Assembly: GCA_036520835.1 (NCBI GenBank) | Contig: DATDIX010000324.1 | Span: 17,332 to 81,331 of the forward strand | DNA length: 64,000 nt | Source of the DNA: Chitinophagaceae bacterium | Lineage (GTDB): Bacteria; Bacteroidota; Bacteroidia; Chitinophagales; Chitinophagaceae | Direction: 5' to 3' | In this document: piece after piece, positions 6,928 through 59,247 of the stretch | How the letters are laid out: each line of letters begins with the position of its first letter | How positions within the stretch are numbered: the first letter of the stretch is position 1 | Made by a program: the position numbers and the translations under genes | Notes under the pieces: generated by a model | What the model saw: only the letters and a program-made list of their open reading frames with translations | Database searches by the model: none | Told to the model about the DNA's origin: nothing

Positions 6928-9453
6928 TTAGTTTTTTAAATTGCTGATTTGCTTAAGAAAAACCCAGGTTTCCCCTTTCTTCGTTCCTTTAATGCCTTCC
7001 TGGTATTTCGTCATTCGTTTATTCCATTCGATCATACGTGGATTATTTTCGGTTGTTTTTGGATTTAACATATCCAGGTTTTCCCCTTTCGGTATACTTA
7101 TTACCAGTACTAACTGCCTTCCATTTTTAAACAAGATTAACTGCTGAAAATTTGCATTACAAAACCCTTTTGCCACTTCCGGCCATTCTTCAAATTGGGT
7201 GGCATGATAATCCAAGTATTCCTGTTGCAGCTTTTTATCAGCAACGAGGTTGGCAGTTAGCAGGATGTGATCCCATTCACTTGCGACAGTCTTGCCGTTG
7301 CAATGCTTTTGCCTGTTATACTCATAAAACAGGTCGTGATATACTTTAACATCCACCCCTGGGAAATTATTTTTCAGCCGGCCCTGCATTACTCCAATAT
7401 CCTGTACTTTACCAAACAACACATAATGATTCTGCCATTGGTAGATAGCTGAGGTATCCATTTTGTTTTGGAACAGAATAGCTTTTAATTTATCCAGGTC
7501 AAGTATTTCGTTTTCCTTTACCACCAATTCGATCACTTCACTGTGTTCTTCATTAATTGACAGGCGGTGCAAGACTGGTGATCTTTCTTTTAACAAATAC
7601 TGATACTGCATTTTCAAACCGGCGTTAAGTTTTATGCTTTCACCTACCTGCGGCCCATTATTATTCCATTCATTACCGGGACCGTTGGCATTCTGTAAGT
7701 ATTTTGGGGAAGGCGTCCAGTTATCTTTTACGATGAAATAAGAAGATCCTTCGTCTGTATAAACATAAAACCAGTGAGAAGGCAGGTGAGCATAAGGAGC
7801 TTTGTAAATGCTGTCAATATAATTCTCACTGATAACAGAACCCGGCTGGGCACTCAATGTGTAAATGCCGGCGCAATCATAATTATGTTTGCCATAGTGG
7901 TGAATCTTATTCCGGGTAATTTTATTATTCCTCATGGCATTGGCAGTTGGTGACCACCCCCAGCCCATACTGATCCCTGTGTAAGACACATTCCCTATTT
8001 CATTCTCTTCGATCGTTGTATTTTTTGCATAGCCAATGCCAATACCCACGCAACTCCAATCTTCATTCGTCGCATCAGTAATTAGGTTATTGCTGATCGT
8101 CATTTTATTACAAACTTCTCTTTCGTCTTTGGGATTATAGGGTAAATGAATTTCGGTGGCCTCATCAGAATATACCCCGGCAAGAATGGCTGTACCGCCA
8201 ATATCTTTGAATAAATTTCCTTTGATCACATTATCATGTACTGCTTTGTTATAGTCCAGCCCGGTTGACGCCAGGTGTTCAAAGCGGCAATTTTCAAATC
8301 CTGTTTGATCCGCATAGGAAACTTCAACAGCCGCAGCAGGTCTGCCAACCCATGCCTGGTTATCCAATGTTGGTTTATCAGGCGTTCCGGCGGGTCTTAA
8401 TTTATAAGCTTCGAGCATATACATTCCCGCCTGGTGGAGAACATGACCATAATGCGATGGCCGCAGCCAACCAGTATGCTGAAATGAAATGCCGTTGAAA
8501 AAAATATTTGAAACTGGATGATCAATAGTTCCCTGTATGCTTACCAGTGTTTCTAAAAAAGGGGCAGTAACAGTAGCAGTCAACAAATTCTCATTATCGC
8601 GGGGCCAGTAATATAATTTCCTGTTTGCAATATCCAGCCACCATTCGCCGGGTTCATCCAGGAATTGAATAGCATTCGTTAAGTAAAAAGCTGAATTGCC
8701 TGTTTCATTGGATATCCATGGGGCGGGCCAGGGATGTTCGCTTTGTATCTTACTTTCAGGCTGATGAAAAAATAATTTAGCACTATCTCCCTGTACTTCC
8801 ATTTTCCTGATCCGCAATATCGCCACTGCCCACCATTGATGAATGAACATTTCCAACCCGGCCATATTTCTTCCCGCCAAAGATTTCGGGGCAGGTATCC
8901 AACAACTCTCTTCATTTTTATTCCAGCTTAATATCCTGTTCATGCTTTGGCCATTCATATCCTTTGCACGAACAGCTTTTTCATTATTGACCCATAATTG
9001 CCGGAACTCAAACAATTTTCCGCCTATTAACGGTACATCAGCTATCCAAACTTTTCCTTTTGACAAAGAAGGCAATCCGGCAATAGTTGTAACCGGCCTT
9101 TTCCAACCACTGATCCTGATACCGCCGCTAAGTACAGGTTGCTCACCCGGTGCTGCTTCGATGTATGTTGGGCTTGTCGTTGTTCCTGCATCTTCGGGAC
9201 GAATAAATAAAGGTTCGGATAATTGGTAAGTTCCACCTTTGAGGATAATATGAATACCATTGGTAAGGGATGCATCATTCAACCGGCGTAATTCTCTTGC
9301 CTTTCGTAAAGCAGCAGTAAGAGTAGCGAGTGGCTTATCTTTTGTTCCGGGATTGTTGTCAGATCCGTTAGGGGCTACATGTATATCAACAGCATTGCCG
9401 GTAAGAGCAACCAGCATTAAAAATGCAAAAAGGCATAGTGGCAATCGTTTCAT
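6928..9453 (-). CDS. Secreted right-handed parallel beta-helix protein fused to a C-terminal L-rhamnose mutarotase-like (RhaM/DUF718) domain
   Basis: The 841-aa product has a signal peptide (LCLFAFLMLVALTGNA). The N-terminus is typical of beta-helix proteins (VDIHVAPNGSDNNPGTKDKPLATLTAALRKA). The last ~105 aa (QQEYLDYHATQFEEWPEVAKGFCNANFQQLILFKNGRQLVLVISIP...) follow the RhaM pattern Y..H....WPE. Confidence 0.7.
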   Translation of the reverse strand: MKRLPLCLFAFLMLVALTGNAVDIHVAPNGSDNNPGTKDKPLATLTAALRKARELRRLNDASLTNGIHIILKGGTYQLSEPLFIRPEDAGTTTSPTYIEAAPGEQPVLSGGIRISGWKRPVTTIAGLPSLSKGKVWIADVPLIGGKLFEFRQLWVNNEKAVRAKDMNGQSMNRILSWNKNEESCWIPAPKSLAGRNMAGLEMFIHQWWAVAILRIRKMEVQGDSAKLFFHQPESKIQSEHPWPAPWISNETGNSAFYLTNAIQFLDEPGEWWLDIANRKLYYWPRDNENLLTATVTAPFLETLVSIQGTIDHPVSNIFFNGISFQHTGWLRPSHYGHVLHQAGMYMLEAYKLRPAGTPDKPTLDNQAWVGRPAAAVEVSYADQTGFENCRFEHLASTGLDYNKAVHDNVIKGNLFKDIGGTAILAGVYSDEATEIHLPYNPKDEREVCNKMTISNNLITDATNEDWSCVGIGIGYAKNTTIEENEIGNVSYTGISMGWGWSPTANAMRNNKITRNKIHHYGKHNYDCAGIYTLSAQPGSVISENYIDSIYKAPYAHLPSHWFYVYTDEGSSYFIVKDNWTPSPKYLQNANGPGNEWNNNGPQVGESIKLNAGLKMQYQYLLKERSPVLHRLSINEEHSEVIELVVKENEILDLDKLKAILFQNKMDTSAIYQWQNHYVLFGKVQDIGVMQGRLKNNFPGVDVKVYHDLFYEYNRQKHCNGKTVASEWDHILLTANLVADKKLQQEYLDYHATQFEEWPEVAKGFCNANFQQLILFKNGRQLVLVISIPKGENLDMLNPKTTENNPRMIEWNKRMTKYQEGIKGTKKGETWVFLKQISNLKN

Positions 9454-14675: not shown

Positions 14676-16967
14676 TTACTGGAATATTTTTTTCAGATAC
14701 ACCGTATTTGCTCCGTAATTATATTTTGTATCTGAGGCCTTTTTTGCATCGCGGCTTCGTTCGATCACCAGCCAGCCGCTCCAGCCCATTTCATCCAATG
14801 TCTTTTTCACTTTATACATGTCTATCTGCGGGTCCTTCTCCAGCCATACGCTGTCTTTGTTCGTGGCATGTATCATGCAGATACGGTCTTTCCCTAATAT
14901 TTTCAATTCTGATAATAGATCCCTGCCTTCTTTTAATGGATTGGAGAAATTGAAATAGATCTTAATGGCAGGCGAACCGATTTCCTTTAACAACTGTACT
15001 TCTTCTTTCGCACTCAGGGCGGTTTCAATACCAATCACTACATTGGCGGTTTCAGCCATCTTACCCGCTACTTTTAACCTGGCTACAACAGAATCCCTTA
15101 CAGAAGGATTTTTCTTTAAATCGCATTGCACACCCAATGGAAGAAATGCTGTCTTTACATTCATCAGCTTCATAGTAGTGATACAATCTTCAATAGATCT
15201 TTTATATTCCTCCCTGTTGCAGAATGACTGGGCATAATAACCCGTCATAGCTAAGGAAAATATTTCCACATTATTCTCTTTAGCGGTTTGCAAAAACTTA
15301 TTGCGTACTGAGTCAGTCAATAGCTGGTTATCAAATGTCGGTCGGGTGCCTAAACCTCCCATATCTACTTCTACCCCATCTGCTTTTAACTCGCCTGTAA
15401 GCGTGATAGCGCCTAATCGCTGTCTTTTTAATAACATCAGGTCGATCAAGCCAATTTTATACCGCTGGTTGTTCTTTGCTTTTTTTATTTCTTCGTCAAA
15501 AACCATTTCGAGGTTTTCAAACCCTTTAATGGCGTGTGCCGGTAGTCGTTCCCCTTTATCACCAAAAACATATAATGCCTGCTCAGGCTCAATAGTGATT
15601 TTTGATTCATCGATCTTACCAGCTACATCCTGTACAGCTTTTAAGTTCAATCCTAAATATTTCGCCATGAATTCGTACACTGCTGTTCTTTTATTGATAC
15701 CGAAATCATGTTTCTCATCCGGCAGGTGAACATTCACTACATTCTCCTTTTTACCATACCAGCTATACATCTTTTGTAAATAAGGAAAATCATGCTCTGG
15801 CATACGGTCCGTCCAATCACCGCCATCGCTTACTATTAATTGCGGGCGGGGCGCTGCCATCGCTGCAATCTCTACATTGTCTGTTCTTCCGCCACAACTA
15901 TGAATATCCATTCCGCTTTCACAGGGACAACCGCCATAGAAATAAGAAGAAAGCGAAACAACCGGGGCGGATACTTTGATGCGGTCATCCAGGGCTGTCA
16001 TCAACACGGTATGACTCCCTGCACCGGAACCACCGGTCATAGCTACACGATTGATATCTGCGTCCTTTAATGATAATAAATAATCAAGAATTCGGATACT
16101 GCCCAATGCCTGTATCGTCATCGACAAACTCCTGCGGTGGTCTTCAAGTTTAAATTGCAATAATGATTCGCCCCAGGCAAACAGATCGTAACTGAATGCC
16201 ATAGCTCCCATTTTTGCTAATGCCGCACAGCGATACTGGCAATCGGGGCGATACCGTTGTTTTTCCCAATGACCATCGGGATTAAGTATTACCGGTATCT
16301 TACCTTTATACTTTGCAGGTTTGTATAAAGATCCATTGATCCATACACCGGGTAATATTTCTAAGGCGATATTCTCAACTGTATATCCATCAAATTTTCT
16401 TTGCGCTGTGATGACAGGTTTGCCCTTGGGTGCGGCAGGCAAATGTGACAACTGCAACGCTTCAAGCAAACAGGGTTTTAATTCCATTTTCCGCTTTTCC
16501 CATTCTTCTGCTGTTTTGTATTGCGCAGCTATCCTGTCCAGTTCTGCCCAGCCTTCCTCCGGGTTCCAGCGATAATATTCATAATAACTCAGCTTATACA
16601 CTTTATCCTTTTCTTTTTTCACTTTCATGTCCAGCGGCTTCAGTATATTATCTAACGTAACTTCGACATCACTCCTGTATCTCCATTCAGCGTAGCTCAC
16701 TGTTTTATTGGCCACCATGCTATCGGGGTATTTGATGGTCACGCCATACTTCTTTTGAATATCTGTCAAAACCTGTTTTAAAGGTTTGCGGTACGCATTG
16801 TCAGCATTCAACTGGGCAAGAGTTGCATTAGCCCACAAAGACACCAGCACACAAAGAAGAAAGGTATATATCACGCAACGGCGCAAAGCCGTGACGTTTA
16901 GGTTTACTATTCCGGTGTTTCGTTGCCTCGTTGCACCTTTCCCGTAACCTTTAGTATTATTTCTCAT
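14676..16967 (-). CDS. Secreted tri-domain fusion: STN/DUF4974-like module, alpha/beta-hydrolase (esterase) domain and xylose-isomerase-like TIM-barrel domain
   Basis: The track ORF starts with TTG at 17018, so I use the ATG at 16967 (MRNNTKG...). It overlaps the upstream stop by 11 nt. The signal peptide is FLLCVLVSLWANATLAQ. The STN-like stretch reads PLKQVLTDIQKKYGVTIKYPDSMVANKTV...LDNILKPLDMKV. The hydrolase core reads VAMTGGSGAGSHT. The C-terminal ~270 aa (GVEVDMGG...VIGIETA...IYFNFSNP...CMIHATN...WLVIERS) resembles sugar-phosphate isomerase/epimerase TIM barrels. Confidence 0.65.
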   Translation of the reverse strand: MRNNTKGYGKGATRQRNTGIVNLNVTALRRCVIYTFLLCVLVSLWANATLAQLNADNAYRKPLKQVLTDIQKKYGVTIKYPDSMVANKTVSYAEWRYRSDVEVTLDNILKPLDMKVKKEKDKVYKLSYYEYYRWNPEEGWAELDRIAAQYKTAEEWEKRKMELKPCLLEALQLSHLPAAPKGKPVITAQRKFDGYTVENIALEILPGVWINGSLYKPAKYKGKIPVILNPDGHWEKQRYRPDCQYRCAALAKMGAMAFSYDLFAWGESLLQFKLEDHRRSLSMTIQALGSIRILDYLLSLKDADINRVAMTGGSGAGSHTVLMTALDDRIKVSAPVVSLSSYFYGGCPCESGMDIHSCGGRTDNVEIAAMAAPRPQLIVSDGGDWTDRMPEHDFPYLQKMYSWYGKKENVVNVHLPDEKHDFGINKRTAVYEFMAKYLGLNLKAVQDVAGKIDESKITIEPEQALYVFGDKGERLPAHAIKGFENLEMVFDEEIKKAKNNQRYKIGLIDLMLLKRQRLGAITLTGELKADGVEVDMGGLGTRPTFDNQLLTDSVRNKFLQTAKENNVEIFSLAMTGYYAQSFCNREEYKRSIEDCITTMKLMNVKTAFLPLGVQCDLKKNPSVRDSVVARLKVAGKMAETANVVIGIETALSAKEEVQLLKEIGSPAIKIYFNFSNPLKEGRDLLSELKILGKDRICMIHATNKDSVWLEKDPQIDMYKVKKTLDEMGWSGWLVIERSRDAKKASDTKYNYGANTVYLKKIFQ

Positions 16968-18510
16968 TCGTATTCCTTTTTTGCTGTCTCCAATTACTGT
17001 ATAATAAATTTCGGTCAATTACCGGTTTTGGAAAAAATAAACTGGCAATATATCCCACCACGATCACGATCAGGTGACTGTACACACCAAGCATCAGCTT
17101 ATGGTGTGTAAAATTATAGTCACCCAGATCCAGTAATACTTTTTTATTATGGACACCAACCGGTGTTGAGGTCAACAAAGCATAGGCCGTAAATAAAATA
17201 CAAACAATAATGCCGATATTAACTCCCTGCCGGTTGGCCCTTGCGCTCAGTATCCCCAGCAGGAAGATACCAACAATACCCCCGGAAAAGATCGCATATA
17301 AGGTAAAGACCACACCGAGTACCCCCTCGTTGCCTGTACGTAGATATAATGCCCCGATACCTGCGGAAATGATACCGGATAGCACAACGAGAATTTTCCC
17401 GGTGCGCAGGTATTGTTTGTCAGGTCTGCCGGGTTTTAGTTTTTTATAATAATCTTCCACTCCCACAGCAGCCAATGAATTCAGGTCAGCACTGAGGCTA
17501 CAGATAGCTGCGGATACCAATGCTGCTACAATGAAACCGACAATACCAGTCGGCAATTGCGTCATGATGAAATGAGGAAATGCGGCTTCGGCCTTCATCC
17601 CTTCCGGTAATCCTTGTTGCTTATAGAAAACAAATAAGGCTGTGCCAATAAACATAAACATGGTCCAGATTGGAACAGTAAGCGAGATACCCAGCAAGGA
17701 AGCCCTGATAGCTGATTTATCAGTCTTGGCGGTAAGATAACGCTGCACTACTGTTTGGTCAGTACCGTATTTCTGGATAGCATAGAAAGCACCGTTGATG
17801 ATCATAACGATGAGTGTCAACTGTGTAAGGTCTGTATTATAAGGCCCAAATCCTGCCCGATCATTTTCAGAAGCGATCTTTATGGCTTCGGGTACACCGC
17901 CTTTGATAGAGAACAATAATATGCCGAGGCAGATGATACCGCTGGCAAACAACATGAAACCCTGGAATACATCGAGCCAGATAACGGCCTGCATACCTCC
18001 TTTCAGGTTCACAATGATCAATACCAGGCTCACGATGGCAAGAATGGCAAATGCATTGATGCCGGTTATTTTGCTGATGGCTACAGCTATCAAAAAAAGA
18101 ACGGTCCCCATGCCCGCAAACTGGCGGAGAATAAAAGATGATGAGCTATAGTACCGGGCAAAAATCCCAAATCGCTTTTCAAAATACTCGTAAGTGCTTA
18201 ACCCGATCACTTTCCTGTAGAGTGGTACAATGAACCAGATAGTACCAAGCAGAACTATTGGAACCATCAATCCCTGCACTAATAAGATCCAGTTGCTGGT
18301 GAATCCCTGTGCAGGATAACCAAGAAAAGTAACACTGCTGATCAGGGTTGATAATAAGGAAAGCCCCAGTGCCCAGGAAGGAAAATTCCCTTTCGATAAA
18401 AAAAAGTTCTCCGTTGTGTTTTGCTTTTTAGAGAACCTGAAACCAAGATATAATGTGACCCCCATTACAAGCAGGATAATGCAATAATCTATAAAATGTA
18501 AGTGATTCAT
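16957..18510 (-). CDS. Sodium:solute symporter family transporter (SSS paralog 2)
   Basis: This is a polytopic membrane protein. The track start at 18525 is TTG, so I prefer the ATG at 18510 (MNHLHFIDYCIILLV...). Confidence 0.85.
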   Translation of the reverse strand: MNHLHFIDYCIILLVMGVTLYLGFRFSKKQNTTENFFLSKGNFPSWALGLSLLSTLISSVTFLGYPAQGFTSNWILLVQGLMVPIVLLGTIWFIVPLYRKVIGLSTYEYFEKRFGIFARYYSSSSFILRQFAGMGTVLFLIAVAISKITGINAFAILAIVSLVLIIVNLKGGMQAVIWLDVFQGFMLFASGIICLGILLFSIKGGVPEAIKIASENDRAGFGPYNTDLTQLTLIVMIINGAFYAIQKYGTDQTVVQRYLTAKTDKSAIRASLLGISLTVPIWTMFMFIGTALFVFYKQQGLPEGMKAEAAFPHFIMTQLPTGIVGFIVAALVSAAICSLSADLNSLAAVGVEDYYKKLKPGRPDKQYLRTGKILVVLSGIISAGIGALYLRTGNEGVLGVVFTLYAIFSGGIVGIFLLGILSARANRQGVNIGIIVCILFTAYALLTSTPVGVHNKKVLLDLGDYNFTHHKLMLGVYSHLIVIVVGYIASLFFPKPVIDRNLLYSNWRQQKRNTNEK

Positions 18511-18587
18511 TGGCGGCCTCCCCAAACCCCTCCTATGGAGAGGGTTAGAACCCTACTTTCGTAAAAGTTCAAACAGGTTCGTTAGTT

Positions 18588-19727
18588 TTATTTTATTAAA
18601 TACAATTTCACAATTTCTTCAGGCAGTTCATAACTACCCGGCTTTACAGTTATATATAAATCCTTTGCTTTCATCCGCACCACACCCCTTTCCAATTCAT
18701 TTACCAATGACAGCGTTTTAATATCCAGTTCGTTCAGAATGGACGCAGCGGTGGAACCACCTTCAATAAATAATTCTTTTACACTTCCTTTCTCCAGTAT
18801 CTTTTTAACAGCTGTAGCCATGATCGTCCGCAGGTACACGGGGGATGCATTCCATGGGTTTACATCCTCGTCATCGATCGCTATTACTGCCTTCTTATGT
18901 TTATCGAGCATTTCTGTTACCGTATTATACCAGGATTCATTATTGACATTACCTGTTTGCATCATGGCAGCCGGCATATAAGCTACACAGTTCAGTTCAT
19001 TTTTTATTCTTTTAATAAAATCACGGCTTTTCCCAAATGCTGTTCCGCTTACATACAAATGCGGTGATCCAACAGGGCTTACCGGTTTTACGGCAGCTTT
19101 GTATTTCCTGGCAAGTAATGCGTTGAAAAAATCACCGGCTCCGGCCAGCACCCAGTCATTATCTATTTTAGTTGCCCAGCCCGTAATATCCTTTTCAAAT
19201 ACCGCTTCACCGATAACAATACCCTTATCCGGCAAACTATCGGTATGTTTTAGAACCTTCACTTCACCGGTGCCGGCTCTTAACATCTGTACTACTGATG
19301 AATCCCTGATCGCAAACTCAGGATCAGTTTCAAAATCCGTTTCACTTATCGGGTCACCGTTGACAAAATAATTCCCGTTTTTAATTGTTCTGCCTAAAGA
19401 GGGGTTAGTTCCCAGGACCAGTGCCTTCGTTTTTCCTGACTGCTGCATCTGTATCTTCAATTCATCCAGTACATGACCACGAAAGACAGAATCAATTTTT
19501 TTATATATGAACTCCGGTTTTAATTTCAGCACTTCTTTCATCACCTCGTCTGTGATCCTTTTTGCATCAGTTTTATTCAAAGACCTGCTATCCGTGCAAA
19601 CAACAAACAGGTCTGCCCCGGTTTCCGGAATAACAGACGTAACTAACTCTACGGCCAGATCATACCGTAAACCTATCCCGGCAATTTCTGCGGCACCTGT
19701 AAGGTCATCTGCTATTACTGCAATCAT
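18588..19727 (-). CDS. DUF1537 four-carbon acid-sugar kinase family protein (D-threonate/D-erythronate kinase class)
   Basis: The 379-aa product begins MIAVIADDLTGAAEIAG, the characteristic ADDxTGA motif of DUF1537. Its start overlaps the PdxA-family stop in an ATGA arrangement. Confidence 0.8.
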   Translation of the reverse strand: MIAVIADDLTGAAEIAGIGLRYDLAVELVTSVIPETGADLFVVCTDSRSLNKTDAKRITDEVMKEVLKLKPEFIYKKIDSVFRGHVLDELKIQMQQSGKTKALVLGTNPSLGRTIKNGNYFVNGDPISETDFETDPEFAIRDSSVVQMLRAGTGEVKVLKHTDSLPDKGIVIGEAVFEKDITGWATKIDNDWVLAGAGDFFNALLARKYKAAVKPVSPVGSPHLYVSGTAFGKSRDFIKRIKNELNCVAYMPAAMMQTGNVNNESWYNTVTEMLDKHKKAVIAIDDEDVNPWNASPVYLRTIMATAVKKILEKGSVKELFIEGGSTAASILNELDIKTLSLVNELERGVVRMKAKDLYITVKPGSYELPEEIVKLYLIK

Positions 19728-20755
19728 TTCCTGTTCTTACTTAGTTGTACAGCGCTTTCGATCGCCAGTATCATGGCATCTGCGCTGGCAATACCTTTCC
19801 CTGCTATTTCAAAAGCAGTACCATGATCAACAGATGTGCGGATGATCGGCAAACCCATTGTTATATTCACTCCTTTCACACTATCCATTTGTTTCTTTTC
19901 TGCATTCCATTTGAAACCTGCGAGTTTAAAGGGGATATGCCCCTGGTCATGATACATAGCGACAACACCTCCATAAGCGCCGGTAGCTGCTTTTGCAAAT
20001 AAAGTGTCAGGAGGAACCGGGCCCTCCACATCAAAACCCATTTTCTTTGCTTCTTCCACTGCAGGTAATATCTCCAGGTCATCTTCCGTACCAAATAAGC
20101 CGCTATCACCGGCATGGGGGTTCAACCCCGCGATGCCAATTTTTAAATTTGTTTCACCCAGGCTGATCATACCATTATATAACAGCTGTGTCACTTCCAG
20201 TATGCGGTCTTTTTTTACCAGGTCGCAGGCCTGTCTTAATGATACATGCGTGGAAACATGGATCACTTTCATTTTGTCCTCCACCAGCAGCATGGCGTAT
20301 TTCTTTGTGCCCGTATAGTGAGCATAAATTTCTGTATGTCCCGCAAAATGATGCCCTGCTTCGTTGATCGATTTTTTATTGATAGGCCCGGTCACTGTTG
20401 CATCCACCTCTTTTGCCAATGCCAGTTCAATTGCTTTCTTCACTGCCTGGAAAGAGGCTTCCCCGCACATCGCAGCTATCTGGCCAAACACTAATTTGCT
20501 GGTATCAGTATTTTTCAAATCGTAGACATCAATAGTACCCAACTTAAATTTTGCATTGGCCACTTTATCAATGGCATTCACTTTTGCTTTTAATTTCAGC
20601 AGAGCAATGATCTGTTCAAACACGTCAGCGTCGCCCACCAAAACTGGTCTGCATATCTCATGAATCTTTTTTTCCAGCAATGCTTTTACGGCGATCTCCG
20701 GCCCGATACTCGCAGGGTCACCCATCGTTATTGCTATGATCGGTAATGAAGCCAT
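19724..20755 (-). CDS. pdxA2: PdxA-family NAD-dependent decarboxylating dehydrogenase (PdxA2-type, 4-phospho-tetronate dehydrogenase class)
   Basis: The 343-aa product carries the motifs IAITMGDPASIGPEI, HTEIYA and AMYHDQGHIPFK, which are typical of PdxA. Its position beside a DUF1537 kinase is the PdxA2 signature. Confidence 0.75.
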   Translation of the reverse strand: MASLPIIAITMGDPASIGPEIAVKALLEKKIHEICRPVLVGDADVFEQIIALLKLKAKVNAIDKVANAKFKLGTIDVYDLKNTDTSKLVFGQIAAMCGEASFQAVKKAIELALAKEVDATVTGPINKKSINEAGHHFAGHTEIYAHYTGTKKYAMLLVEDKMKVIHVSTHVSLRQACDLVKKDRILEVTQLLYNGMISLGETNLKIGIAGLNPHAGDSGLFGTEDDLEILPAVEEAKKMGFDVEGPVPPDTLFAKAATGAYGGVVAMYHDQGHIPFKLAGFKWNAEKKQMDSVKGVNITMGLPIIRTSVDHGTAFEIAGKGIASADAMILAIESAVQLSKNRK

Positions 20756-20757
20756 GA

Positions 20758-21660
20758 CTATCTCTCTATTTCTTTTAAAGATTGAACTAATTTTATTTTT
20801 TCTTCCTTTGATACTGGCTGCAAAGGAGGCATCACTGTCTCTTCACACAGGCCTTTTTCATTCATCAGTACTTTCAGCGCCCATAAACTCTCTCCTAAAG
20901 TTTTGTTGCTTTGGTACAGGTTACCATACGCATCAGACAATTGCTGCATTTCATAGGCTTTTTTATGATCAGCATTATCAACAGCTTTCAGCATTTCTGA
21001 ATAAATCTCCGGCACAAGGTTACCTGTACTCGGTACCAGGCCATCACTACCCCCGATAAGGGCAATAGCCGATTTGGCTGCCCAGCCCAGGAAATGCCCA
21101 AAATCCGTTCGTTCTTTCCATTTCTCCAAAGATTTCATCAACCGCTCTTCACTTCTTTCAGAATCCTTGGTCGCCACAATATGCGGATGATGACTCAATT
21201 CATCTATCAGTTCAACCGGGATACTCATATGTGTAGTAGCCGTGATATTATAAATGATCAACGGAGCAGCTATCGCATCCGCCAGGTCAATAAAATATTT
21301 TTTCATCTGGCTTTCTGACAAAGCGTAATAAGAAGGCAGGGTCGCAGCTACTGCATCCACGCCATTATCAAAACAAAACTTTGCAAAATCAACTGACTCA
21401 CTTAAACAATTGGAGGAGATGCCCGCATACAAAACCGTATCTTTCATTTTTACCTGTAACGCTTTTCTTACGTACGCCTCTTTTACCGGTAAGGACAATG
21501 AAGCTGATTCACCGGTGGTGCCTAAAATAAATGGTGATATATTCTGCTGATAAAACCTTGTAAATATTTTCTCAACAGCTCCCTCGTCCAGCTTGTAACC
21601 GGGGGTAAGCGGCGTAATTGCCGGCACAATAATTCCCTGGTATTTTTTATCCTTTCTCAT
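20758..21660 (-). CDS. DHDPS/NanA-family class I pyruvate aldolase (paralog 1)
   Basis: It contains the LGTTGESASLS motif and a Schiff-base lysine context (IVATKDS). The track start at 21663 is TTG. The ATG at 21660 overlaps the upstream TGA by 1 nt (TGATG). Confidence 0.8.
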   Translation of the reverse strand: MRKDKKYQGIIVPAITPLTPGYKLDEGAVEKIFTRFYQQNISPFILGTTGESASLSLPVKEAYVRKALQVKMKDTVLYAGISSNCLSESVDFAKFCFDNGVDAVAATLPSYYALSESQMKKYFIDLADAIAAPLIIYNITATTHMSIPVELIDELSHHPHIVATKDSERSEERLMKSLEKWKERTDFGHFLGWAAKSAIALIGGSDGLVPSTGNLVPEIYSEMLKAVDNADHKKAYEMQQLSDAYGNLYQSNKTLGESLWALKVLMNEKGLCEETVMPPLQPVSKEEKIKLVQSLKEIER

Positions 21661-22808
21661 CAATAAGCGGCTTTATAAATTTCAACGGCATCTTTTTCTT
21701 CGATCGGTCTCGGGTTATTTTTCAGCAGGCGTTGGATCTTCAAAGCGTCAACCGCCATTTGTGGGATAGCCGATTCAGGCACATTCACTTCTTTTAACGT
21801 GGCAGGAATACCACATGCTTTGATCAGGCTTTTTATTTTGCTGACACCGGCATAGGCTGTTGCTTCATCATTACTTTGTCTTTCACAACCCAGGGCAACA
21901 GCTACATCTGCATAGCGTTTCTCGGCAGCAGGAATATTATACTCCATTACATAAGGTAATAACAATGCATTGGACAAACCATGCGCCAGGTGAAACATAC
22001 TTCCGAGCGGATAAGATAAGGCATGAACCCCTGCTGTATTGACGGGGCCTAAACAAAATCCTCCGTACAAACTACCCATCGCTACCTGTGTACGTGCCTC
22101 AACATTGTTACCCTCTTTTACGGCTGTTTCAATATTTGCGGCGATCAAACGGATGCCTTCATAGGCATACATATCTATAAAAGGTAAAGCAAATTTGTTG
22201 GTATACGCTTCAAGGCAATGGGTCAACGCATCTATCCCTGTAGCCGCAGTTATAGCGGGAGGGACGGAGATCGTCAGCATCGGGTCAACATATACTATAT
22301 CCGGAACGAGATAAGGACTGATGATCCCTTTTTTTTGATTGTCTTCATCTACCAGTATCGCATTGGGTGATACTTCGCTGCCTGTACCGGATGTAGCAGG
22401 TACACAGATCAGTTTTTTCTTTCTTCCTTTCAATAACCCGATACCGACATATTCTTGTAACTGTTGTTCATTTTCTAATTGTGCAGCCACCAGTTTAGCG
22501 ATATCCAGTACACTGCCACCCCCAATACCGATCACTATGTCGGGATTGAATGGTGTTACTGTCTGCATGAGCTTTTCAAAATCACTGAATGTGGGCTCCT
22601 GCACAATAGAAGTATCGGTTAATATTGTAATCCGGCTTCTTTCAAGCAGGGCAATAAAATCAGCAATAGCTTCCTTTAAAGGGATGATGGTAGCAATAAA
22701 AACTTTAGCCGGTTTTAACTCCAGTACGTCATCTGCCAGCTGTACCAGGGTACCATTACCAAAAACTAATTTACCGGGAAAGAATATTTTGAGAGGATTG
22801 ACAGGCAT
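21660..22808 (-). CDS. Iron-containing (group III) alcohol dehydrogenase, FucO/lactaldehyde-reductase-like
   Basis: The 382-aa product has GIGGGSVLDIAKLVAA and a His-rich metal site (HALSYPLGSMFHLAHG). Confidence 0.8.
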   Translation of the reverse strand: MPVNPLKIFFPGKLVFGNGTLVQLADDVLELKPAKVFIATIIPLKEAIADFIALLERSRITILTDTSIVQEPTFSDFEKLMQTVTPFNPDIVIGIGGGSVLDIAKLVAAQLENEQQLQEYVGIGLLKGRKKKLICVPATSGTGSEVSPNAILVDEDNQKKGIISPYLVPDIVYVDPMLTISVPPAITAATGIDALTHCLEAYTNKFALPFIDMYAYEGIRLIAANIETAVKEGNNVEARTQVAMGSLYGGFCLGPVNTAGVHALSYPLGSMFHLAHGLSNALLLPYVMEYNIPAAEKRYADVAVALGCERQSNDEATAYAGVSKIKSLIKACGIPATLKEVNVPESAIPQMAVDALKIQRLLKNNPRPIEEKDAVEIYKAAY

Positions 22809-22821
22809 CTTTATTGATAAA

Positions 22822-23799
22822 TTATATAGCAGGATCCAAAGGCACTTTGGGTAGCATCAGGCTTTCAATATCAACCGGTTTTATTTTCAACCGCTCACAC
22901 CACAACCCGAAACTATCATGTATCTCATTCAGGGTTTGTTTCTGTTGGGGTGTCAACTCCAAAGCTGTTGCCCGGCTGATCGTTCGTATCGGCAATCCTC
23001 TTTTACGTAAAAAATATTTAGCACTCATGGGGTATGCCACATGTATCAGCGGGTCAACGCGGCTGATCTCCGATTGCAGCCATTTCACTTCTTCCTGCTT
23101 ATCCGGGTTAGTGGCATTGTTTACCATCCACACTAATATCTCGGGGTAAAAATTACCGGAAATAGATGACATCCCCTTTGCACCCATCTGCAAACTATAC
23201 ATTGCATTGGGTGAATGAGCATCGTAGAACTCCAGGCTATTCCCTGTATCTTTTAATATATCCAGCTTGGCCTTTACCCTTTCCAGTTCGATAGACGTGT
23301 CTTTATGATACACCAGCCGGTTAGCCGACAACAAGGTCTTGAATGTATCCGGCCCAATGATCCTTTTATACGGTGCCGGGCATTCATACATTCCCAAAGG
23401 AATATTGCCGGTAAGTTTGAACATCTTATCAAAATTGCGCAGCAGTATATCGTCACTGTCTTCAATATTGGCATAATGGCCGGTGATCAGTATCACCGCA
23501 CTAATTCCCGTATCATATATTTTCTTCGTAAACTCTGCTTTGTCTTCGATCGTCAGACCGAATGAACCGGTAGCCACTACCGGCACACGGCCATTGACAT
23601 ACTTCACAATATGCTGCGTCAGCTCCAGTCTTTCATCCTCTGTAATACTATACATTTCACTGCTCAGGCAATTAGCGAAAAAACCTTTGACACCCGCAGC
23701 TAAATAAAAATCAATGAGGTTACTCACCACATCCAGATCAACCTTTGCTTTGAGGTTGAAGGGGGTGATCATTACCGGAACAAATTTTCTGTCACTCAT
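22822..23799 (-). CDS. DHDPS/NanA-family class I aldolase (divergent paralog 2)
   Basis: The 325-aa product starts VPVMITPF and has a lysine context of VYHKDTS. The usual GxxGE motif is replaced by ANCLSSEMYS. Confidence 0.7.
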   Translation of the reverse strand: MSDRKFVPVMITPFNLKAKVDLDVVSNLIDFYLAAGVKGFFANCLSSEMYSITEDERLELTQHIVKYVNGRVPVVATGSFGLTIEDKAEFTKKIYDTGISAVILITGHYANIEDSDDILLRNFDKMFKLTGNIPLGMYECPAPYKRIIGPDTFKTLLSANRLVYHKDTSIELERVKAKLDILKDTGNSLEFYDAHSPNAMYSLQMGAKGMSSISGNFYPEILVWMVNNATNPDKQEEVKWLQSEISRVDPLIHVAYPMSAKYFLRKRGLPIRTISRATALELTPQQKQTLNEIHDSFGLWCERLKIKPVDIESLMLPKVPLDPAI

Positions 23800-23819
23800 A
23801 TCTCGCTTATTTAGAAGGT

Positions 23820-23887
23820 ATAAATATTCGATTTTTTAGCCCCAAAAAGATGTAGGATACTACTATTGTCCTGTATTATTTTACTTT
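23820..23887 (-). promoter_or_regulatory. Degenerate fourth copy of the operator-promoter module (candidate internal promoter)
   Basis: The minus strand reads AAAGTAAAATAATACAGGACAATAG (23887..23863). ATAG is retained at module position 22, TACATC (23854..23849) sits at module positions 34-39, and AATATTTAT (23828..23820) falls one nt short of the usual spacing. The ATG at 23799 follows. Confidence 0.35.
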
Positions 23888-23890
23888 TTA

Positions 23891-25459
23891 TCAGCTGGCA
23901 GCCACTATCTTACCGGTCCTGAACCTCGTTAGCAATAACCCCGCTAAAAAGATCGTCAGTGTTCCCACCACTATGATCATATTCTTGTGCAGCGGGCTCT
24001 TCAGAAAATTGTATTCCCCGCTGATCCTGTCGGAGAAGGTCATCCATAAAATAACGATAATACCAATGATCGTAGCCGTTAATGCTTCCGCATTCTTTGC
24101 CCTGCGGCTGATCAGTCCCAGCAAAAACAATCCCAGCATACCCCCTGCAAAAATACCTGACAACTCCCACCATATATCCAATAAACTTTTTGCACCGATC
24201 ATCGCCAGCCCGGTACCCAGCCCGATCAACCCGAATATGACTGTCGCCATATGCAGGATGAACAATTGCTGTTTATCGGTGATGCCCGGTCTGAAATGTC
24301 TTTTATAAATATCCATCGTGAAAACAGTAGCTGATGAATTCATATTAGAACTGATGGTACTCATAGCCGCAGACAAGATAGCAGAGACTATTAAACCCAC
24401 TAAGCCGGTTGGAACATTCGTCACCATGAAATGCGGTAACACTTTATCTCCGTAATCTGCGGCTTTAAATGACGCAGCCATTTCTGTTACCTGTTGTGAA
24501 GTAGCAACACTTCCCAACTTTTCTGCTGCCGCTTTTAATTTTACCGGTTCTATCATTTCCGGGTGCACCTGGTAAAATGCATATAAGGCAGCGCCGATGA
24601 TAAAAAATAATAAAGAAGCCGGCACATACATAGCTACACATAGCCACACAGATTTACTTGCTTGTTTTGCCGAGGTAGCGGTATGGTATCGTTGAATATA
24701 ATTCTGGTCCATACCAAAATTATTCAGGTTGATAAAGAAGCCATAGAACAGGATGACCCAGAATGTAGATTCGGTAAAATTGGGTGAAAGGCTTCCAAGA
24801 CTTAATTTATGATCCGCTTTAGCAATATCGATCACCTCCGAAAATCCACCCGGGATCTCTTTCACCACCAGGAACAATATTAAAACAGCACCCAATGTTT
24901 TAATAATACCCTGCACTACTTCCGTCCATATCACCGCTTCCATACCGCCGAGTACCGTATATATAATGATACAAATACCCATCACGATCATGATGGAAGC
25001 CATGGAGAAGCCTGTCAATGCCTGCAGGCTTAAAGCCATTCCAAAAAAAATAGAACCCATCCTCGCAAACTGTGTCAATAAAAAACAAACAACTGCATAG
25101 GTTCTTGCCCAGGAGCCAAAACGTTTTTCCAAATGTGTGTAGGCTGATATTTCCCCGGTGCTCCTGTAAAACGGGACAAAATATTTTGACGCAGCCCATG
25201 CAGCCAATGGCATAGAGATGCTGAATACAAAAGCATTCCAGTTACTGCCAAATGCCTTACCTGGTACGCCTAAAAAAGTATTGCTGCTTAAAAAGGTTGC
25301 ATAGATAGAAAGTCCGATGGCCCAGCCGGGGATCTTTCCAGATGCCCTGGTAAACTGCTCTGTATTCTTATTCCGCCGGGAAAAATAAAAGCCAATTGCT
25401 ACCATCGCAAGGAGGTACACAATGATTATGGCAATATCAAATACAGGCAGGCTATTCAT
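23891..25459 (-). CDS. Sodium:solute symporter family transporter (SSS paralog 3)
   Basis: The 522-aa product is polytopic. Its N-terminus is similar to that of the 16957-18510 paralog. Confidence 0.85.
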   Translation of the reverse strand: MNSLPVFDIAIIIVYLLAMVAIGFYFSRRNKNTEQFTRASGKIPGWAIGLSIYATFLSSNTFLGVPGKAFGSNWNAFVFSISMPLAAWAASKYFVPFYRSTGEISAYTHLEKRFGSWARTYAVVCFLLTQFARMGSIFFGMALSLQALTGFSMASIMIVMGICIIIYTVLGGMEAVIWTEVVQGIIKTLGAVLILFLVVKEIPGGFSEVIDIAKADHKLSLGSLSPNFTESTFWVILFYGFFINLNNFGMDQNYIQRYHTATSAKQASKSVWLCVAMYVPASLLFFIIGAALYAFYQVHPEMIEPVKLKAAAEKLGSVATSQQVTEMAASFKAADYGDKVLPHFMVTNVPTGLVGLIVSAILSAAMSTISSNMNSSATVFTMDIYKRHFRPGITDKQQLFILHMATVIFGLIGLGTGLAMIGAKSLLDIWWELSGIFAGGMLGLFLLGLISRRAKNAEALTATIIGIIVILWMTFSDRISGEYNFLKSPLHKNMIIVVGTLTIFLAGLLLTRFRTGKIVAAS

Positions 25460-25474
25460 CGTTAGTGTTAACCG

Positions 25475-36932: not shown

Positions 36933-36939
36933 TCCTATA

Positions 36940-39074: not shown

Positions 39075-39083
39075 TTGCGTGGT

Positions 39084-40022: not shown

Positions 40023-40024
40023 CT

Positions 40025-41811: not shown

Positions 41812-41851
41812 TTGCTTTAAACTTCCTGGACCTTTTAAACTTGTTAAATCT

Positions 41852-53242: not shown

Positions 53243-53262
53243 ATACAAGTTCAATTTTATAA

Positions 53263-59181: not shown

Positions 59182-59247
59182 CCGGAAAGTTTTTATCGTT
59201 AGGAAAAATGAATGATCGTCCAACTAATACCATTTTCATTCATCCAC

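What the first reader, a model, noticed from the sequence alone, without database searches (positions are those of the whole stretch)
14676..16967. Secreted STN-like + esterase + xylose-isomerase-like TIM-barrel fusion protein
Three modules that are normally separate are joined behind a signal peptide.
1. A ~70-aa stretch matches the secretin/TonB N-terminal (STN) or FecR C-terminal (DUF4974) pattern. That pattern is normally used for TonB-transducer/anti-sigma contacts and is not found in either SusC encoded here.
2. An alpha/beta-hydrolase carries an atypical GGSGAG nucleophile elbow. It is plausibly an acetyl or methyl esterase, since RG-II carries both ester types.
3. A xylose-isomerase-like TIM barrel forms the C-terminus.
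TIM barrels of this fold partner with Gfo/Idh/MocA oxidoreductases in oxidative-eliminative cleavage of glycosides. Examples are C-glycoside lyases and the 3-keto-glycoside pathway described in Bacteroides. The fusion could therefore deacylate and then non-hydrolytically cleave a recalcitrant linkage. One caveat is that the only Gfo/Idh/MocA gene in the window (5829-6920) lacks a signal peptide.
Basis: partly seen in the sequence, partly recalled or inferred. Interest (0 to 1): 0.6.

Follow-up and report, generated by a model that had tools for sequence, protein, structure and literature searches.

The report
RG-II methylesterase fused to unknown TIM barrel
This gene encodes a secreted pectin methylesterase of a known family (CE19, like BT1017 of Bacteroides thetaiotaomicron) fused to its neighbour gene, a secreted TIM-barrel protein of unknown function that is found almost only in gene clusters for the plant pectin rhamnogalacturonan-II.

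Summary
The three modules are real. The ORF at 14676-16967 (-) encodes 763 aa. It has a signal peptide, an STN/FecR_C-fold domain, an alpha/beta-hydrolase and a xylose-isomerase-like TIM barrel.

The first two modules are not an unusual pairing. Residues 56-494 match the crystallised catalytic module of BT1017 (PDB 6GOC, CE19 RG-II pectin methylesterase) at E 2.6e-128 and 49.5% identity. The catalytic triad (S314/D384/H420) and the Zn ligands (H233, H277, C347, C349) are conserved. The STN-like piece is the family's own "cap" domain. GGSGAG is one substitution away from the family motif GxSxGG.

The TIM barrel (501-763) folds with pLDDT 95.5. It belongs to a small secreted subfamily found in RG-II loci, either alone or fused to other RG-II enzymes. 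In 37 of 69 related loci the esterase and the barrel are adjacent separate genes, each barrel gene with room for its own leader; in 32 they share one ORF. The fusion therefore joins neighbours.

The subfamily never keeps the canonical metal-binding Asp (Asn673 here). It has an invariant Lys/Arg cluster instead. No periplasmic Gfo/Idh/MocA partner is present. The 3-keto-glycoside lyase reading is therefore unsupported. The barrel's reaction is unknown; I favour proton-abstraction chemistry on an acidic RG-II sugar.

The parts
14676..16967 (-). Whole ORF, 763 aa plus stop: signal peptide, CE19 catalytic module, linker, TIM barrel.
   Evidence: The frame is open, and 32 related loci carry the same single-ORF arrangement.
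16815..16967 (-). Predicted Sec signal peptide, residues 1-51. The n-region is long, the h-region reads CVIYTFLLCVLVSLWA, and the likely cleavage is ATLA|Q. The ATG overlaps the end of the upstream SSF transporter gene by 11 nt.
   Evidence: Sequence. Homologues share a hydrophobic leader before (A/S)AQ-x-N-T/A-D-N. Inferred; no predictor was run.
16518..16802 (-). CE19 domain 1 (the 'cap'), STN/FecR_C fold, residues 56-150.
   Evidence: Pfam FecR_C scores 25.8 bits on the isolated domain, and 30 of 31 orthologues hit it. The AF2 model has pLDDT 84. Foldseek finds 6GOC first, then the PupB, FecA, FoxA and FpvA signalling domains at about 2 A rmsd. It aligns to BT1017 residues 29-129 at 36% identity.
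15558..16517 (-). CE19 alpha/beta-hydrolase domain, residues 151-470. Nucleophile S314 (16026-16028) sits in GGSGAG. D384 is at 15816-15818 and H420 at 15708-15710. Zn ligands are H233, H277, C347 and C349.
   Evidence: phmmer against 6GOC gives E 2.6e-128, with 53% identity in this part. Residues were mapped against S282/D352/H388 and C315/C317/H201/H244 of BT1017.
15468..15557 (-). Helical linker, residues 471-500. It corresponds to the BT1017 linker that leads to DUF3826. Here it replaces the signal peptide that the free-standing TIM gene carries.
   Evidence: The alignment to 6GOC runs to residue 494. The linker is described. Free-standing TIM proteins start MKK...LAQ-x-QRYKIG.
14679..15467 (-). 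Xylose-isomerase-like TIM barrel of the RG-II-locus subfamily ('group A'), residues 501-763. The metal-site positions read E648-N673-H700-E736, where the canonical set is E-D-H-E. Subfamily signature residues are D509, K514-R515-Q516, E533, D535, Y578, Q580, R682, D705, R737-S738-R739, N750 and N754.
   Evidence: Pfam scores 69.2 bits. AF2 gives pLDDT 95.5 with eight strands and eight helices. The site table covers 52 family representatives.

Best explanation
The gene encodes a periplasmic two-enzyme fusion that serves rhamnogalacturonan-II (RG-II) breakdown.

Part 1, residues 56-494, is an orthologue of the catalytic module of BT1017 (CAZy family CE19).
- A small STN-fold cap domain sits on a Zn-containing alpha/beta-hydrolase.
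- The Ser314-His420-Asp384 triad should hydrolyse the 6-O-methyl esters of galacturonic acid in RG-II backbone and chain-A fragments.
- This de-esterification unblocks the glycosidases that follow.
- Homology and conserved catalytic residues are shown here. The activity is inferred from BT1017.

Part 2, residues 501-763, is the product of the neighbouring gene, joined on by loss of the intergenic region and of the barrel's own signal peptide.
- In about half of the related loci the two remain separate secreted proteins.
- The barrel belongs to a small secreted xylose-isomerase-like subfamily that occurs in RG-II loci.
- It keeps Glu648, His700 and Glu736 at the catalytic face. It always has Asn or Ser (one Lys) where the family's metal-binding Asp sits.
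- It has gained an invariant basic cluster: K514, R515, R737 and R739, with R682 in most members.

My inference for part 2 is that it is an active enzyme. I propose that it binds a carboxylate-bearing RG-II sugar (GalA, GlcA, Kdo, Dha or aceric acid) through the basic cluster. It would then abstract a proton alpha to a carbonyl or carboxylate, giving isomerisation, epimerisation or beta-elimination. This would be a separate step, not one mechanistically coupled to the esterase. The exact reaction is unknown.
For: CE19 part:
- phmmer against PDB 6GOC gives E 2.6e-128 over residues 56-494, with 49.5% identity.
- The triad and all four Zn ligands are conserved.
- BT1017 biochemistry is described.

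Context:
- The window is an RG-II locus with orthologues of B. thetaiotaomicron enzymes. It carries GH141 (BT1002), GH127, GH78, a BT_1020-like protein, GH140 apiosidase, GH43, GH2, DUF3826 and two SusC/D pairs.

Fusion of neighbours:
- In GCA_000390105.1 the same operon has a 514-aa CE19 gene followed by a 291-aa TIM gene with its own Sec leader.
- Of 69 loci with both genes, 32 have one ORF and 37 have two ORFs 79-420 nt apart.

TIM subfamily:
- Only 659 of 1.84 billion cluster representatives match it at E<=0.001.
- It occurs alone with Sec or Tat leaders.
- It also occurs fused to BNR_2 sialidase-like, GH78+BNR_2, DUF3826 and BD-FAE esterase domains.
- Its neighbours are RG-II genes in nearly all of 80 genome loci and in four distant metagenome loci.
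- Among 301 Bacteroidota genomes it is found in 9. These are exactly the 9 that have full-length CE19 and GH141.

Signs that the barrel is functional:
- It is more conserved than CE19 in 57 of 69 loci, with mean identity 78.8% against 72.2%.
- All invariant polar residues lie at or just after the C-terminal ends of the beta-strands.
- The best fold match is UlaE, a sugar-phosphate epimerase crystallised with bound sulfate. This fits an anion-binding pocket.
Against: - No activity of either domain was measured.
- The reaction proposed for the barrel is inference from residue chemistry and context only.
- Some subfamily members lack Glu648 (Arg, Ser or Asp instead). One lacks His700 and two lack Glu736. 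The conserved catalytic core, if there is one, may therefore not be these residues.
- A non-catalytic binding or scaffolding role is not excluded.
- BT1017 itself carries DUF3826 in this position, and that domain showed no RG-II binding. Accessory domains of this esterase can therefore lack an obvious function.
- I could not obtain model coordinates, so I could not confirm that the basic residues line one pocket.
- The co-occurrence data cannot separate a link to CE19 from a link to any other RG-II gene. Every RG-II locus in the sample had all of them.
Confidence: 0.6

Rival explanations
1. The TIM barrel is a 3-keto-glycoside or C-glycoside-type lyase. It would act after a Gfo/Idh/MocA oxidoreductase, so the fusion de-esterifies and then cleaves a recalcitrant RG-II linkage by oxidation and elimination.
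For: - The barrel is in the same superfamily as the 3-keto-beta-glucoside 1,2-lyase AL1 (8TCD, E 5.5e-11) and as DgpB-C.
- That pathway uses secreted TIM-barrel lyases once annotated as sugar phosphate isomerases.
- A more distant relative (36% identity in the alignment) is fused to a DUF1080 3-keto-disaccharide-hydrolase domain.
- A Gfo/Idh/MocA gene is conserved three genes downstream in most loci. Its best PDB relative is the C-glycoside 3-oxidase DgpA.
Against: - Identity to AL1 is 13% and TM is 0.69, no better than to epimerases and IolE.
- The relatives with DUF1080 belong to the other subgroup, which keeps the canonical E-D-H-E set.
- In this subgroup the Asp ligand is never present, whereas AL1/BT1 bind Co2+ through His/Asp/His.
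- The Gfo/Idh/MocA protein has no signal peptide, whereas the known pathway's enzymes work in the periplasm and three of the AL proteins carry signal peptides.
- The match to DgpA covers only the Rossmann domain.
- No DUF1080 gene lies in the window.
Confidence: 0.1
2. The barrel works with the downstream GH141-RhaM enzyme on the disaccharide 2-O-Me-Xyl-alpha1,3-L-Fuc, the one RG-II product that B. thetaiotaomicron leaves uncut.
- GH141 releases the disaccharide.
- The RhaM extension of GH141 equilibrates the anomers of the reducing fucose.
- The barrel isomerises that reducing end, or eliminates its 3-O substituent.
For: - The gene order TIM then GH141-RhaM is conserved in most of the 80 loci.
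- GH141 here carries a roughly 220-aa C-terminal extension with an L-rhamnose-mutarotase domain. BT1002 (624 aa) lacks it and aligns only to residues 21-620.
- All nine GH141 ORFs found in the genome sample are 840-872 aa.
- B. thetaiotaomicron accumulates the disaccharide.
- An earlier scan note (e1-5245479) raised the same idea; it is a lead, not evidence.
Against: - The disaccharide is neutral, whereas the barrel's signature is a Lys/Arg cluster.
- In one genus the barrel lies 65-72 kb from GH141, and in Dyadobacter loci it sits next to the BNR_2 gene.
- None of the fused forms I examined joins the barrel to GH141.
- I could not check whether B. thetaiotaomicron truly lacks the barrel.
Confidence: 0.12
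3. The barrel is a catalytically dead accessory module, for glycan binding, docking or stabilisation. It would take the place that DUF3826 holds in BT1017.
For: - The canonical Asp ligand is lost throughout the subfamily, and other ligand positions are lost in some members.
- The barrel occupies the same C-terminal position as DUF3826 in BT1017.
- It is fused to many different RG-II enzymes, as carbohydrate-binding modules are.
Against: - About half of the loci encode it as a free secreted protein.
- It is more conserved than the esterase.
- The invariant residues are charged or polar and lie at the catalytic face. They are not the aromatic platform typical of binding modules.
- Some members carry Tat leaders, which are typical of cofactor-containing enzymes, though not exclusive to them.
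Confidence: 0.15
4. The STN/FecR_C-like N-terminal domain mediates trans-envelope signalling or docking to a TonB-dependent transporter or anti-sigma factor.
For: The fold and the Pfam match are real.
Against: - In the BT1017 crystal structure the domain is part of the catalytic module and caps the hydrolase.
- It is present in every full-length CE19 orthologue examined.
- Neither SusC in the window has an STN domain, and no sigma or anti-sigma gene is present.
Confidence: 0.05

Closest known systems
BT1017 of Bacteroides thetaiotaomicron, founding member of carbohydrate esterase family CE19 (PDB 6GOC; Duan et al. 2020/21, PMC7939467)
   Same: - Signal peptide, a small alpha/beta cap domain and a Zn-containing alpha/beta-hydrolase.
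- 49.5% identity over 430 aligned residues.
- Identical Ser/Asp/His triad and Cys2His2 Zn site.
- Encoded in an RG-II utilisation locus.
   Different: - The C-terminal accessory domain is a xylose-isomerase-like TIM barrel, not DUF3826. DUF3826 is encoded separately, twice, in the window (26598-27323 and 58399-59223).
- The nucleophile elbow reads GGSGAG, not GGSGGG.
- The host is a Chitinophagaceae-type bacterium by closest homologues, not a gut Bacteroides.
L-xylulose-5-phosphate 3-epimerase UlaE and ketose 3-epimerases (PDB 3CQI/3CQJ, 5H1W, 3VNJ), xylose-isomerase-like TIM barrels
   Same: - Best structural matches: TM 0.72-0.78, Foldseek E 1e-12 to 1e-9.
- The positions of the two catalytic/ligand Glu and of the His are kept (E648, E736, H700).
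   Different: - Only 12-18% identity.
- No sequence-level hit to any PDB entry.
- The Asp ligand is replaced by Asn.
- The protein is secreted, not cytoplasmic.
- It has its own KRQ and RSR motifs.
3-keto-beta-glucopyranoside 1,2-lyase AL1/BT1 (PDB 8TCD; bioRxiv 10.1101/2024.03.25.586180)
   Same: A secreted TIM barrel of the same superfamily, encoded in glycan loci and formerly annotated 'sugar phosphate isomerase'.
   Different: - 13% identity.
- AL1 binds Co2+ through His/Asp/His and works with a periplasmic Gfo/Idh/MocA oxidase and a DUF1080 hydratase. None of these features is present here.
STN signalling domains of TonB-dependent transducers (FecA 1ZZV/2D1U, PupB 6OVK/9CUV, FpvA, FoxA) and Pfam FecR_C (PF16344)
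   Same: Same small fold at about 2 A rmsd over 70-77 aligned columns, and a Pfam FecR_C hit.
   Different: - 13-20% identity.
- It is attached to an esterase as its cap, not to a transporter plug or an anti-sigma factor.
- There is no signalling context in the locus.

Membership tests
CE19 (BT1017-type RG-II pectin methylesterase) | Homology over the whole catalytic module (domain 1 plus alpha/beta-hydrolase) to BT1017-CM | tested here: met
   phmmer against 6GOC: E 2.6e-128, query 56-494 against chain 29-461; 49.5% identity.
CE19 (BT1017-type RG-II pectin methylesterase) | Ser-Asp-His triad (BT1017 S282, D352, H388; each Ala mutant is inactive) | tested here: met
   S314, D384 and H420 align to the BT1017 residues.
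CE19 (BT1017-type RG-II pectin methylesterase) | [quoted passage not shown] | tested here: met
   The window reads G-G-S-G-A-G, with Ala at the fifth position. Close orthologues read either GGSGAG or GGSGGG.
CE19 (BT1017-type RG-II pectin methylesterase) | Tetrahedral Zn site (BT1017 C315, C317, H201, H244) | tested here: met
   C347, C349, H233 and H277 are conserved in the alignment. Metal content itself cannot be tested here.
CE19 (BT1017-type RG-II pectin methylesterase) | Methylesterase activity on RG-II | not testable with these tools
   This needs an enzyme assay. The RG-II locus context is consistent with it.
STN / FecR_C cell-surface-signalling domains | The small alpha/beta fold and a profile match | tested here: met
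   FecR_C scores 25.8 bits (cut-off 24.4) on the isolated domain, and 30 of 31 orthologues hit it. Foldseek matches the PupB, FecA and FpvA signalling domains.
STN / FecR_C cell-surface-signalling domains | Attachment to a TonB-dependent transducer or an anti-sigma factor, with a cognate ECF sigma system | tested here: not met
   The domain is the N-terminal cap of an esterase. The SusC proteins in the window lack STN, and none of the 39 gene-sized ORFs scanned of the 43 ORFs of 150 aa or more is a sigma or anti-sigma protein.
Xylose-isomerase-like TIM barrel (PF01261) | Profile match above the curated cut-off and a (beta/alpha)8 fold | tested here: met
   69.2 bits against 31.1. AF2 pLDDT 95.5 with eight strands and eight helices. 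Foldseek TM up to 0.78.
Xylose-isomerase-like TIM barrel (PF01261) | Canonical Glu-Asp-His-Glu metal-binding set | tested here: not met
   The window reads E648-N673-H700-E736. The Asp position is Asn or Ser (one Lys) in all subgroup-A members and Asp in subgroup B.
3-keto-glycoside 1,2-lyase (AL1/BT1) and C-glycoside deglycosidase systems | Specific sequence relationship to the characterised lyases | tested here: not met
   No PDB hit by phmmer at E<=0.9. Foldseek gives 13% identity and TM 0.69, no better than to epimerases.
3-keto-glycoside 1,2-lyase (AL1/BT1) and C-glycoside deglycosidase systems | Periplasmic Gfo/Idh/MocA oxidase (and DUF1080 hydratase) encoded alongside | tested here: not met
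   The only Gfo/Idh/MocA protein starts with its Rossmann motif and has no leader. No DUF1080 was found in the window.
3-keto-glycoside 1,2-lyase (AL1/BT1) and C-glycoside deglycosidase systems | Metal-dependent elimination on 3-keto sugars | not testable with these tools
   This needs synthetic 3-keto substrates and an assay.

The most novel reading that the evidence does not exclude
The group-A TIM barrel could be a new kind of RG-II-degrading enzyme that is absent from the B. thetaiotaomicron paradigm. It would be a secreted xylose-isomerase-fold enzyme that needs no canonical metal site. It would use a Lys/Arg cluster to activate an acidic sugar, or a reducing-end sugar, for isomerisation or non-hydrolytic (beta-eliminative) cleavage. 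One possible target is the 2-O-Me-Xyl-Fuc linkage that B. thetaiotaomicron cannot cut. If it cleaves a glycosidic bond, it would found a new TIM-barrel lyase family.
Probability: 0.25. Interest if true: 0.75.

Novelty: new variant of a known kind. Interest (0 to 1): 0.45.

Why it matters
RG-II is often called the most complex plant glycan. Its breakdown has been worked out enzyme by enzyme in only one organism, B. thetaiotaomicron.

This analysis shows that soil and freshwater Bacteroidota carry a conserved secreted TIM-barrel protein inside their RG-II loci. The groups include Chitinophagaceae, Dyadobacter, Arcicella and Mucilaginibacter. The barrel is sometimes fused to the essential CE19 methylesterase. 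No member of the subfamily has been characterised, and its active site departs from the family norm.

The barrel is a defined, clonable candidate for a missing or alternative step in RG-II catabolism.

The work also shows that the cap domain of CE19 has the STN/FecR_C fold. The structural paper on BT1017 did not note this.

If the barrel proves inactive, the result is still useful. The finding then reduces to an ordinary orthologue of a known esterase with an accessory domain.

Tried and rejected
- phmmer of the TIM domain against all PDB sequences found nothing below E 0.9.
- NCBIfam gave only sub-threshold hits to UlaE/SgbU and IolE models.
- I looked for papers that characterise an RG-II-linked TIM barrel. 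The only mention is one line in the BT1017 paper listing the architecture.
- I tried to separate the barrel's link to CE19 from its link to GH141 by presence and absence in 301 Bacteroidota genomes. This failed because the same nine genomes carry all three genes.
- I tried to find out whether B. thetaiotaomicron has a group-A barrel. The control genomes report only Pfam-level presence and cannot be queried with a protein, so this stays open.
- I tried to get organism names for the distant and fused family members. None is on record.
- Model coordinates are not exposed, so I could not measure whether the Lys/Arg residues line one pocket.
- An assembly or frameshift artefact for the fusion is rejected. 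The single ORF recurs in 32 independent loci.
- The trans-envelope signalling idea for the STN-like domain is rejected as above.


Full report
**Observation.** The minus-strand ORF 14676-16967 is open and encodes 763 residues.
- Pfam finds a xylose-isomerase-like TIM barrel (AP_endonuc_2, residues 526-741, 69.2 bits against a cut-off of 31.1).
- It also finds esterase-type hits around residues 282-338 (GCE_fung, AXE1) and a FecR_C hit at 61-124 (21.5 bits, just under the 24.4 cut-off).
- The N-terminus has a hydrophobic segment ending ATLA|Q. Homologues share the pattern.

**The first two modules are one known unit.**
- A search of all PDB sequences matched residues 56-494 to chain 6GOC_A at E 2.6e-128.
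- 6GOC is the catalytic module of BT1017 of Bacteroides thetaiotaomicron. BT1017 is the founding and only characterised member of carbohydrate esterase family CE19, an RG-II pectin methylesterase.
- Identity is 49.5% over 430 aligned residues: 36% in the small N-terminal domain and 53% in the hydrolase.
- The paper describes BT1017-CM as two domains. Domain 1 is a small alpha/beta "flexible cap". Domain 2 is a canonical alpha/beta-hydrolase.
- The BT1017 triad is S282/D352/H388, and each Ala mutant is inactive. The Zn ion is held by C315, C317, H201 and H244. [quoted passage not shown]
- In the window protein the aligned residues are S314, D384 and H420, and H233, H277, C347 and C349. All are conserved.
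- The elbow GGSGAG differs from BT1017's GGSGGG at one position. Close orthologues carry either form. It is therefore the family's normal motif, not an atypical one.

**The STN-like stretch.**
- The excised domain (residues 53-150) scores 25.8 bits on Pfam FecR_C, above the cut-off. Of 31 orthologous domains down to 39% identity, 30 hit the same model.
- An AlphaFold model built from that alignment has pLDDT 84.
- Foldseek matches it to BT1017 domain 1 first. It then matches the STN signalling domains of PupB, FecA, FoxA and FpvA at about 2 A rmsd over 70-77 columns.
- The functional inference does not follow. In the crystal structure this domain is part of the esterase's catalytic module.
- The domain is present in every full-length orthologue.
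- The two SusC proteins in the window have no STN domain. No sigma or anti-sigma gene was found among the gene-sized ORFs scanned.

**Context.** The window is an RG-II utilisation locus.
- It holds orthologues of the B. thetaiotaomicron enzymes GH141 (BT1002; E 1e-212 to 5MQP) and GH127, two GH78 genes, and a BT_1020-like propeller.
- It also holds GH140 apiosidase, GH43, two GH2 genes, DUF6298, two DUF3826 genes and two SusC/D pairs.
- It further holds an apiose-type catabolic cluster and a DHDPS/Fe-ADH/PdxA/DUF1537-kinase block.
- A methylesterase role for the CE19 part fits this context.

**The TIM barrel.**
- Residues 496-763 have no sequence-detectable relative in the PDB.
- With an alignment of relatives the domain folds at pLDDT 95.5 into eight strands and eight helices.
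- Foldseek places it in the xylose-isomerase-like superfamily without a close neighbour. UlaE gives TM 0.78 at 17% identity. The 3-keto-beta-glucoside lyase AL1 gives TM 0.69 at 13%. Ketose 3-epimerases, IolE and DgpB-C also match.
- An exhaustive HMMER search of 1.84 billion cluster representatives found only 659 relatives at E<=0.001.
- The relatives fall into two groups.
- Group B (36% identity or less) mostly carries Tat leaders and keeps the canonical Glu-Asp-His-Glu metal set.
- Group A (39% identity or more, including this protein) never has the Asp. It reads Asn or Ser, and once Lys. It mostly keeps the two Glu and the His.
- In a few group-A members the first Glu is Arg, Ser or Asp. 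One member lacks the His and two lack the last Glu.
- Group A carries its own nearly invariant residues: D509, K514-R515-Q516, E533, D535, Y578, Q580, D705, R737-S738-R739, N750 and N754, with R682 in most members.
- By the model's secondary structure, these residues lie at or just after the C-terminal ends of the strands, the catalytic face of a TIM barrel.

**Where the barrel occurs.** Group A is tied to RG-II loci.
- In 80 genome loci the usual order is CE19 or BNR_2, then TIM, then GH141-RhaM, Gfo/Idh/MocA, SSF, a rhamnosidase-like gene and GH127. The taxa include Chitinophagaceae, Arcicella, Dyadobacter, Mucilaginibacter, Niastella and Pontibacter.
- Distant members from metagenomes sit next to GH140, GH2, DUF3826, DUF6298, GH95, GH106 and GH78-BNR_2 genes.
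- The barrel also occurs fused to BNR_2, to GH78+BNR_2 (1537 aa), to DUF3826 and to a BD-FAE esterase.
- In a sample of 301 Bacteroidota genomes, group A is in nine. These are the same nine that carry full-length CE19 and GH141.

**The fusion.**
- In GCA_000390105.1 the same operon encodes a 514-aa CE19 protein. A 291-aa TIM protein follows, 85% identical to the domain here, with its own Sec leader.
- Of 69 loci with both genes, 32 have a single ORF. The other 37 have two ORFs 79-420 nt apart, each with room for a leader.
- The fusion joins two neighbouring genes, and the barrel's leader is replaced by the CE19 C-terminal linker.
- It is real, since it recurs in independent assemblies. By itself it is weak evidence for coupled chemistry.
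- The architecture is not new to the literature. The BT1017 paper lists "xylose isomerase-like TIM barrel" among the domain partners of BT1017-CM, without further study.

**What the barrel does.** This is inference.
- The barrel is under stronger constraint than the esterase. It is more conserved in 57 of 69 loci, with mean identity 78.8% against 72.2%.
- It is secreted, and its conserved residues are charged and sit at the catalytic face. I therefore take it to be an enzyme.
- Reactions in this superfamily start with abstraction of a proton next to a carbonyl or carboxylate. The exception I know of is endonuclease IV. This is established knowledge of the family.
- The gained Lys/Arg cluster, the variable metal ligands and the RG-II setting point to a carboxylate-bearing sugar as substrate: GalA, GlcA, Kdo, Dha or aceric acid.
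- The outcome could be isomerisation, epimerisation or beta-elimination. I cannot choose between these.

- Similarity to AL1 is only at superfamily level.
- AL1/BT1 bind Co2+ through His/Asp/His, and the Asp equivalent is missing here.
- The locus's only Gfo/Idh/MocA protein begins MLNIGILGLGEG, with no leader, while the known pathway is periplasmic.
- No DUF1080 partner is present.
- The mechanism is not excluded.

**A second specific idea.**
- It was raised independently in an earlier scan note and is compatible with what I saw.
- The barrel would act on the 2-O-Me-Xyl-alpha1,3-Fuc disaccharide that GH141 releases and that B. thetaiotaomicron cannot cleave.
- For it: TIM then GH141 adjacency is conserved. 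GH141 here carries a RhaM mutarotase extension that BT1002 lacks. This suggests that a following periplasmic step cares about a reducing-end anomer.
- Against it: the disaccharide is neutral. In some genomes the barrel lies 65-72 kb from GH141.

**Verdict.**
- It is wrong or unsupported on novelty of the STN+esterase pairing, the atypical elbow, the signalling role and the oxidative-eliminative mechanism.
- The esterase half is a new member of a known family. The barrel half belongs to an uncharacterised RG-II-specific subfamily and is the part worth an experiment.

Noticed in passing
window 16957-26596 (-): A co-directional block: BNR_2 sialidase-like hydrolase, SSF transporter, DHDPS-type aldolase, Fe-ADH, a second DHDPS-type aldolase, PdxA-family dehydrogenase, DUF1537 kinase and a second SSF transporter. 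It looks like a catabolic route for the RG-II ulosonic acids (Dha/Kdo) that ends in the four-carbon acid-sugar kinase and PdxA2 steps. The DHDPS-to-SSF part of the block is conserved upstream of CE19-TIM in about 24 related loci. An earlier scan note had already flagged it.
   Followed up: partly
window 6928-9453 (-): The GH141 orthologue of BT1002 has a roughly 220-aa C-terminal extension that contains an L-rhamnose-mutarotase (RhaM) domain (Pfam 740-836). BT1002 (PDB 5MQP, 624 aa) aligns only to residues 21-620. All nine GH141 ORFs found in 301 Bacteroidota genomes are 840-872 aa.
   Followed up: partly
window 34451-43267 (-): An apiose-type catabolic cluster: FGGY kinase, ABC transporter (permease, ATPase, DUF2291, periplasmic binding protein), split transketolase and a FucI-like isomerase. 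The same transketolase and FucI-like genes lie near a distant TIM-barrel relative in L086.
   Followed up: no
window 50505-52163 and 52313-53254 (-): Two proteins (552 and 313 aa) have no Pfam hit at E<0.01. The 552-aa protein is 73-74% identical to proteins in the loci L070 (Dyadobacter) and L082 (MAG labelled Janthinobacterium lividum), again next to DUF6298. It is therefore a conserved unknown component of RG-II loci.
   Followed up: partly
L055, L087; proteins P0122, P0124, P0129, P0135: The same TIM-barrel subfamily is fused elsewhere to BNR_2 (636 aa), to GH78+BNR_2 (1537 aa), to DUF3826 (490 aa) and to a BD-FAE esterase (588 aa). RG-II enzymes in these lineages appear to be joined in many combinations.
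   Followed up: partly
L088 8001-11477 (protein P0125): A 1158-aa protein carries the TIM barrel at its C-terminus. The roughly 890-aa N-terminal region has no Pfam hit. It lies beside GH106, GH2, a GH43-like gene and a URO-D-like gene.
   Followed up: no
window 5829-6920 (-): A cytoplasmic Gfo/Idh/MocA oxidoreductase with no leader. Its best PDB relatives are the C-glycoside 3-oxidase DgpA and YjhC; for DgpA the match covers only the N-terminal domain. It is conserved next to an SSF transporter downstream of GH141 in most related loci. Its substrate is unknown.
   Followed up: partly
window 16957-16967: The ATG of the CE19-TIM gene overlaps the last 11 nt of the upstream SSF transporter gene. 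An in-frame TTG lies 51 nt further upstream, at 17018. Homologue N-termini vary in length, so the true start is not settled.
   Followed up: no
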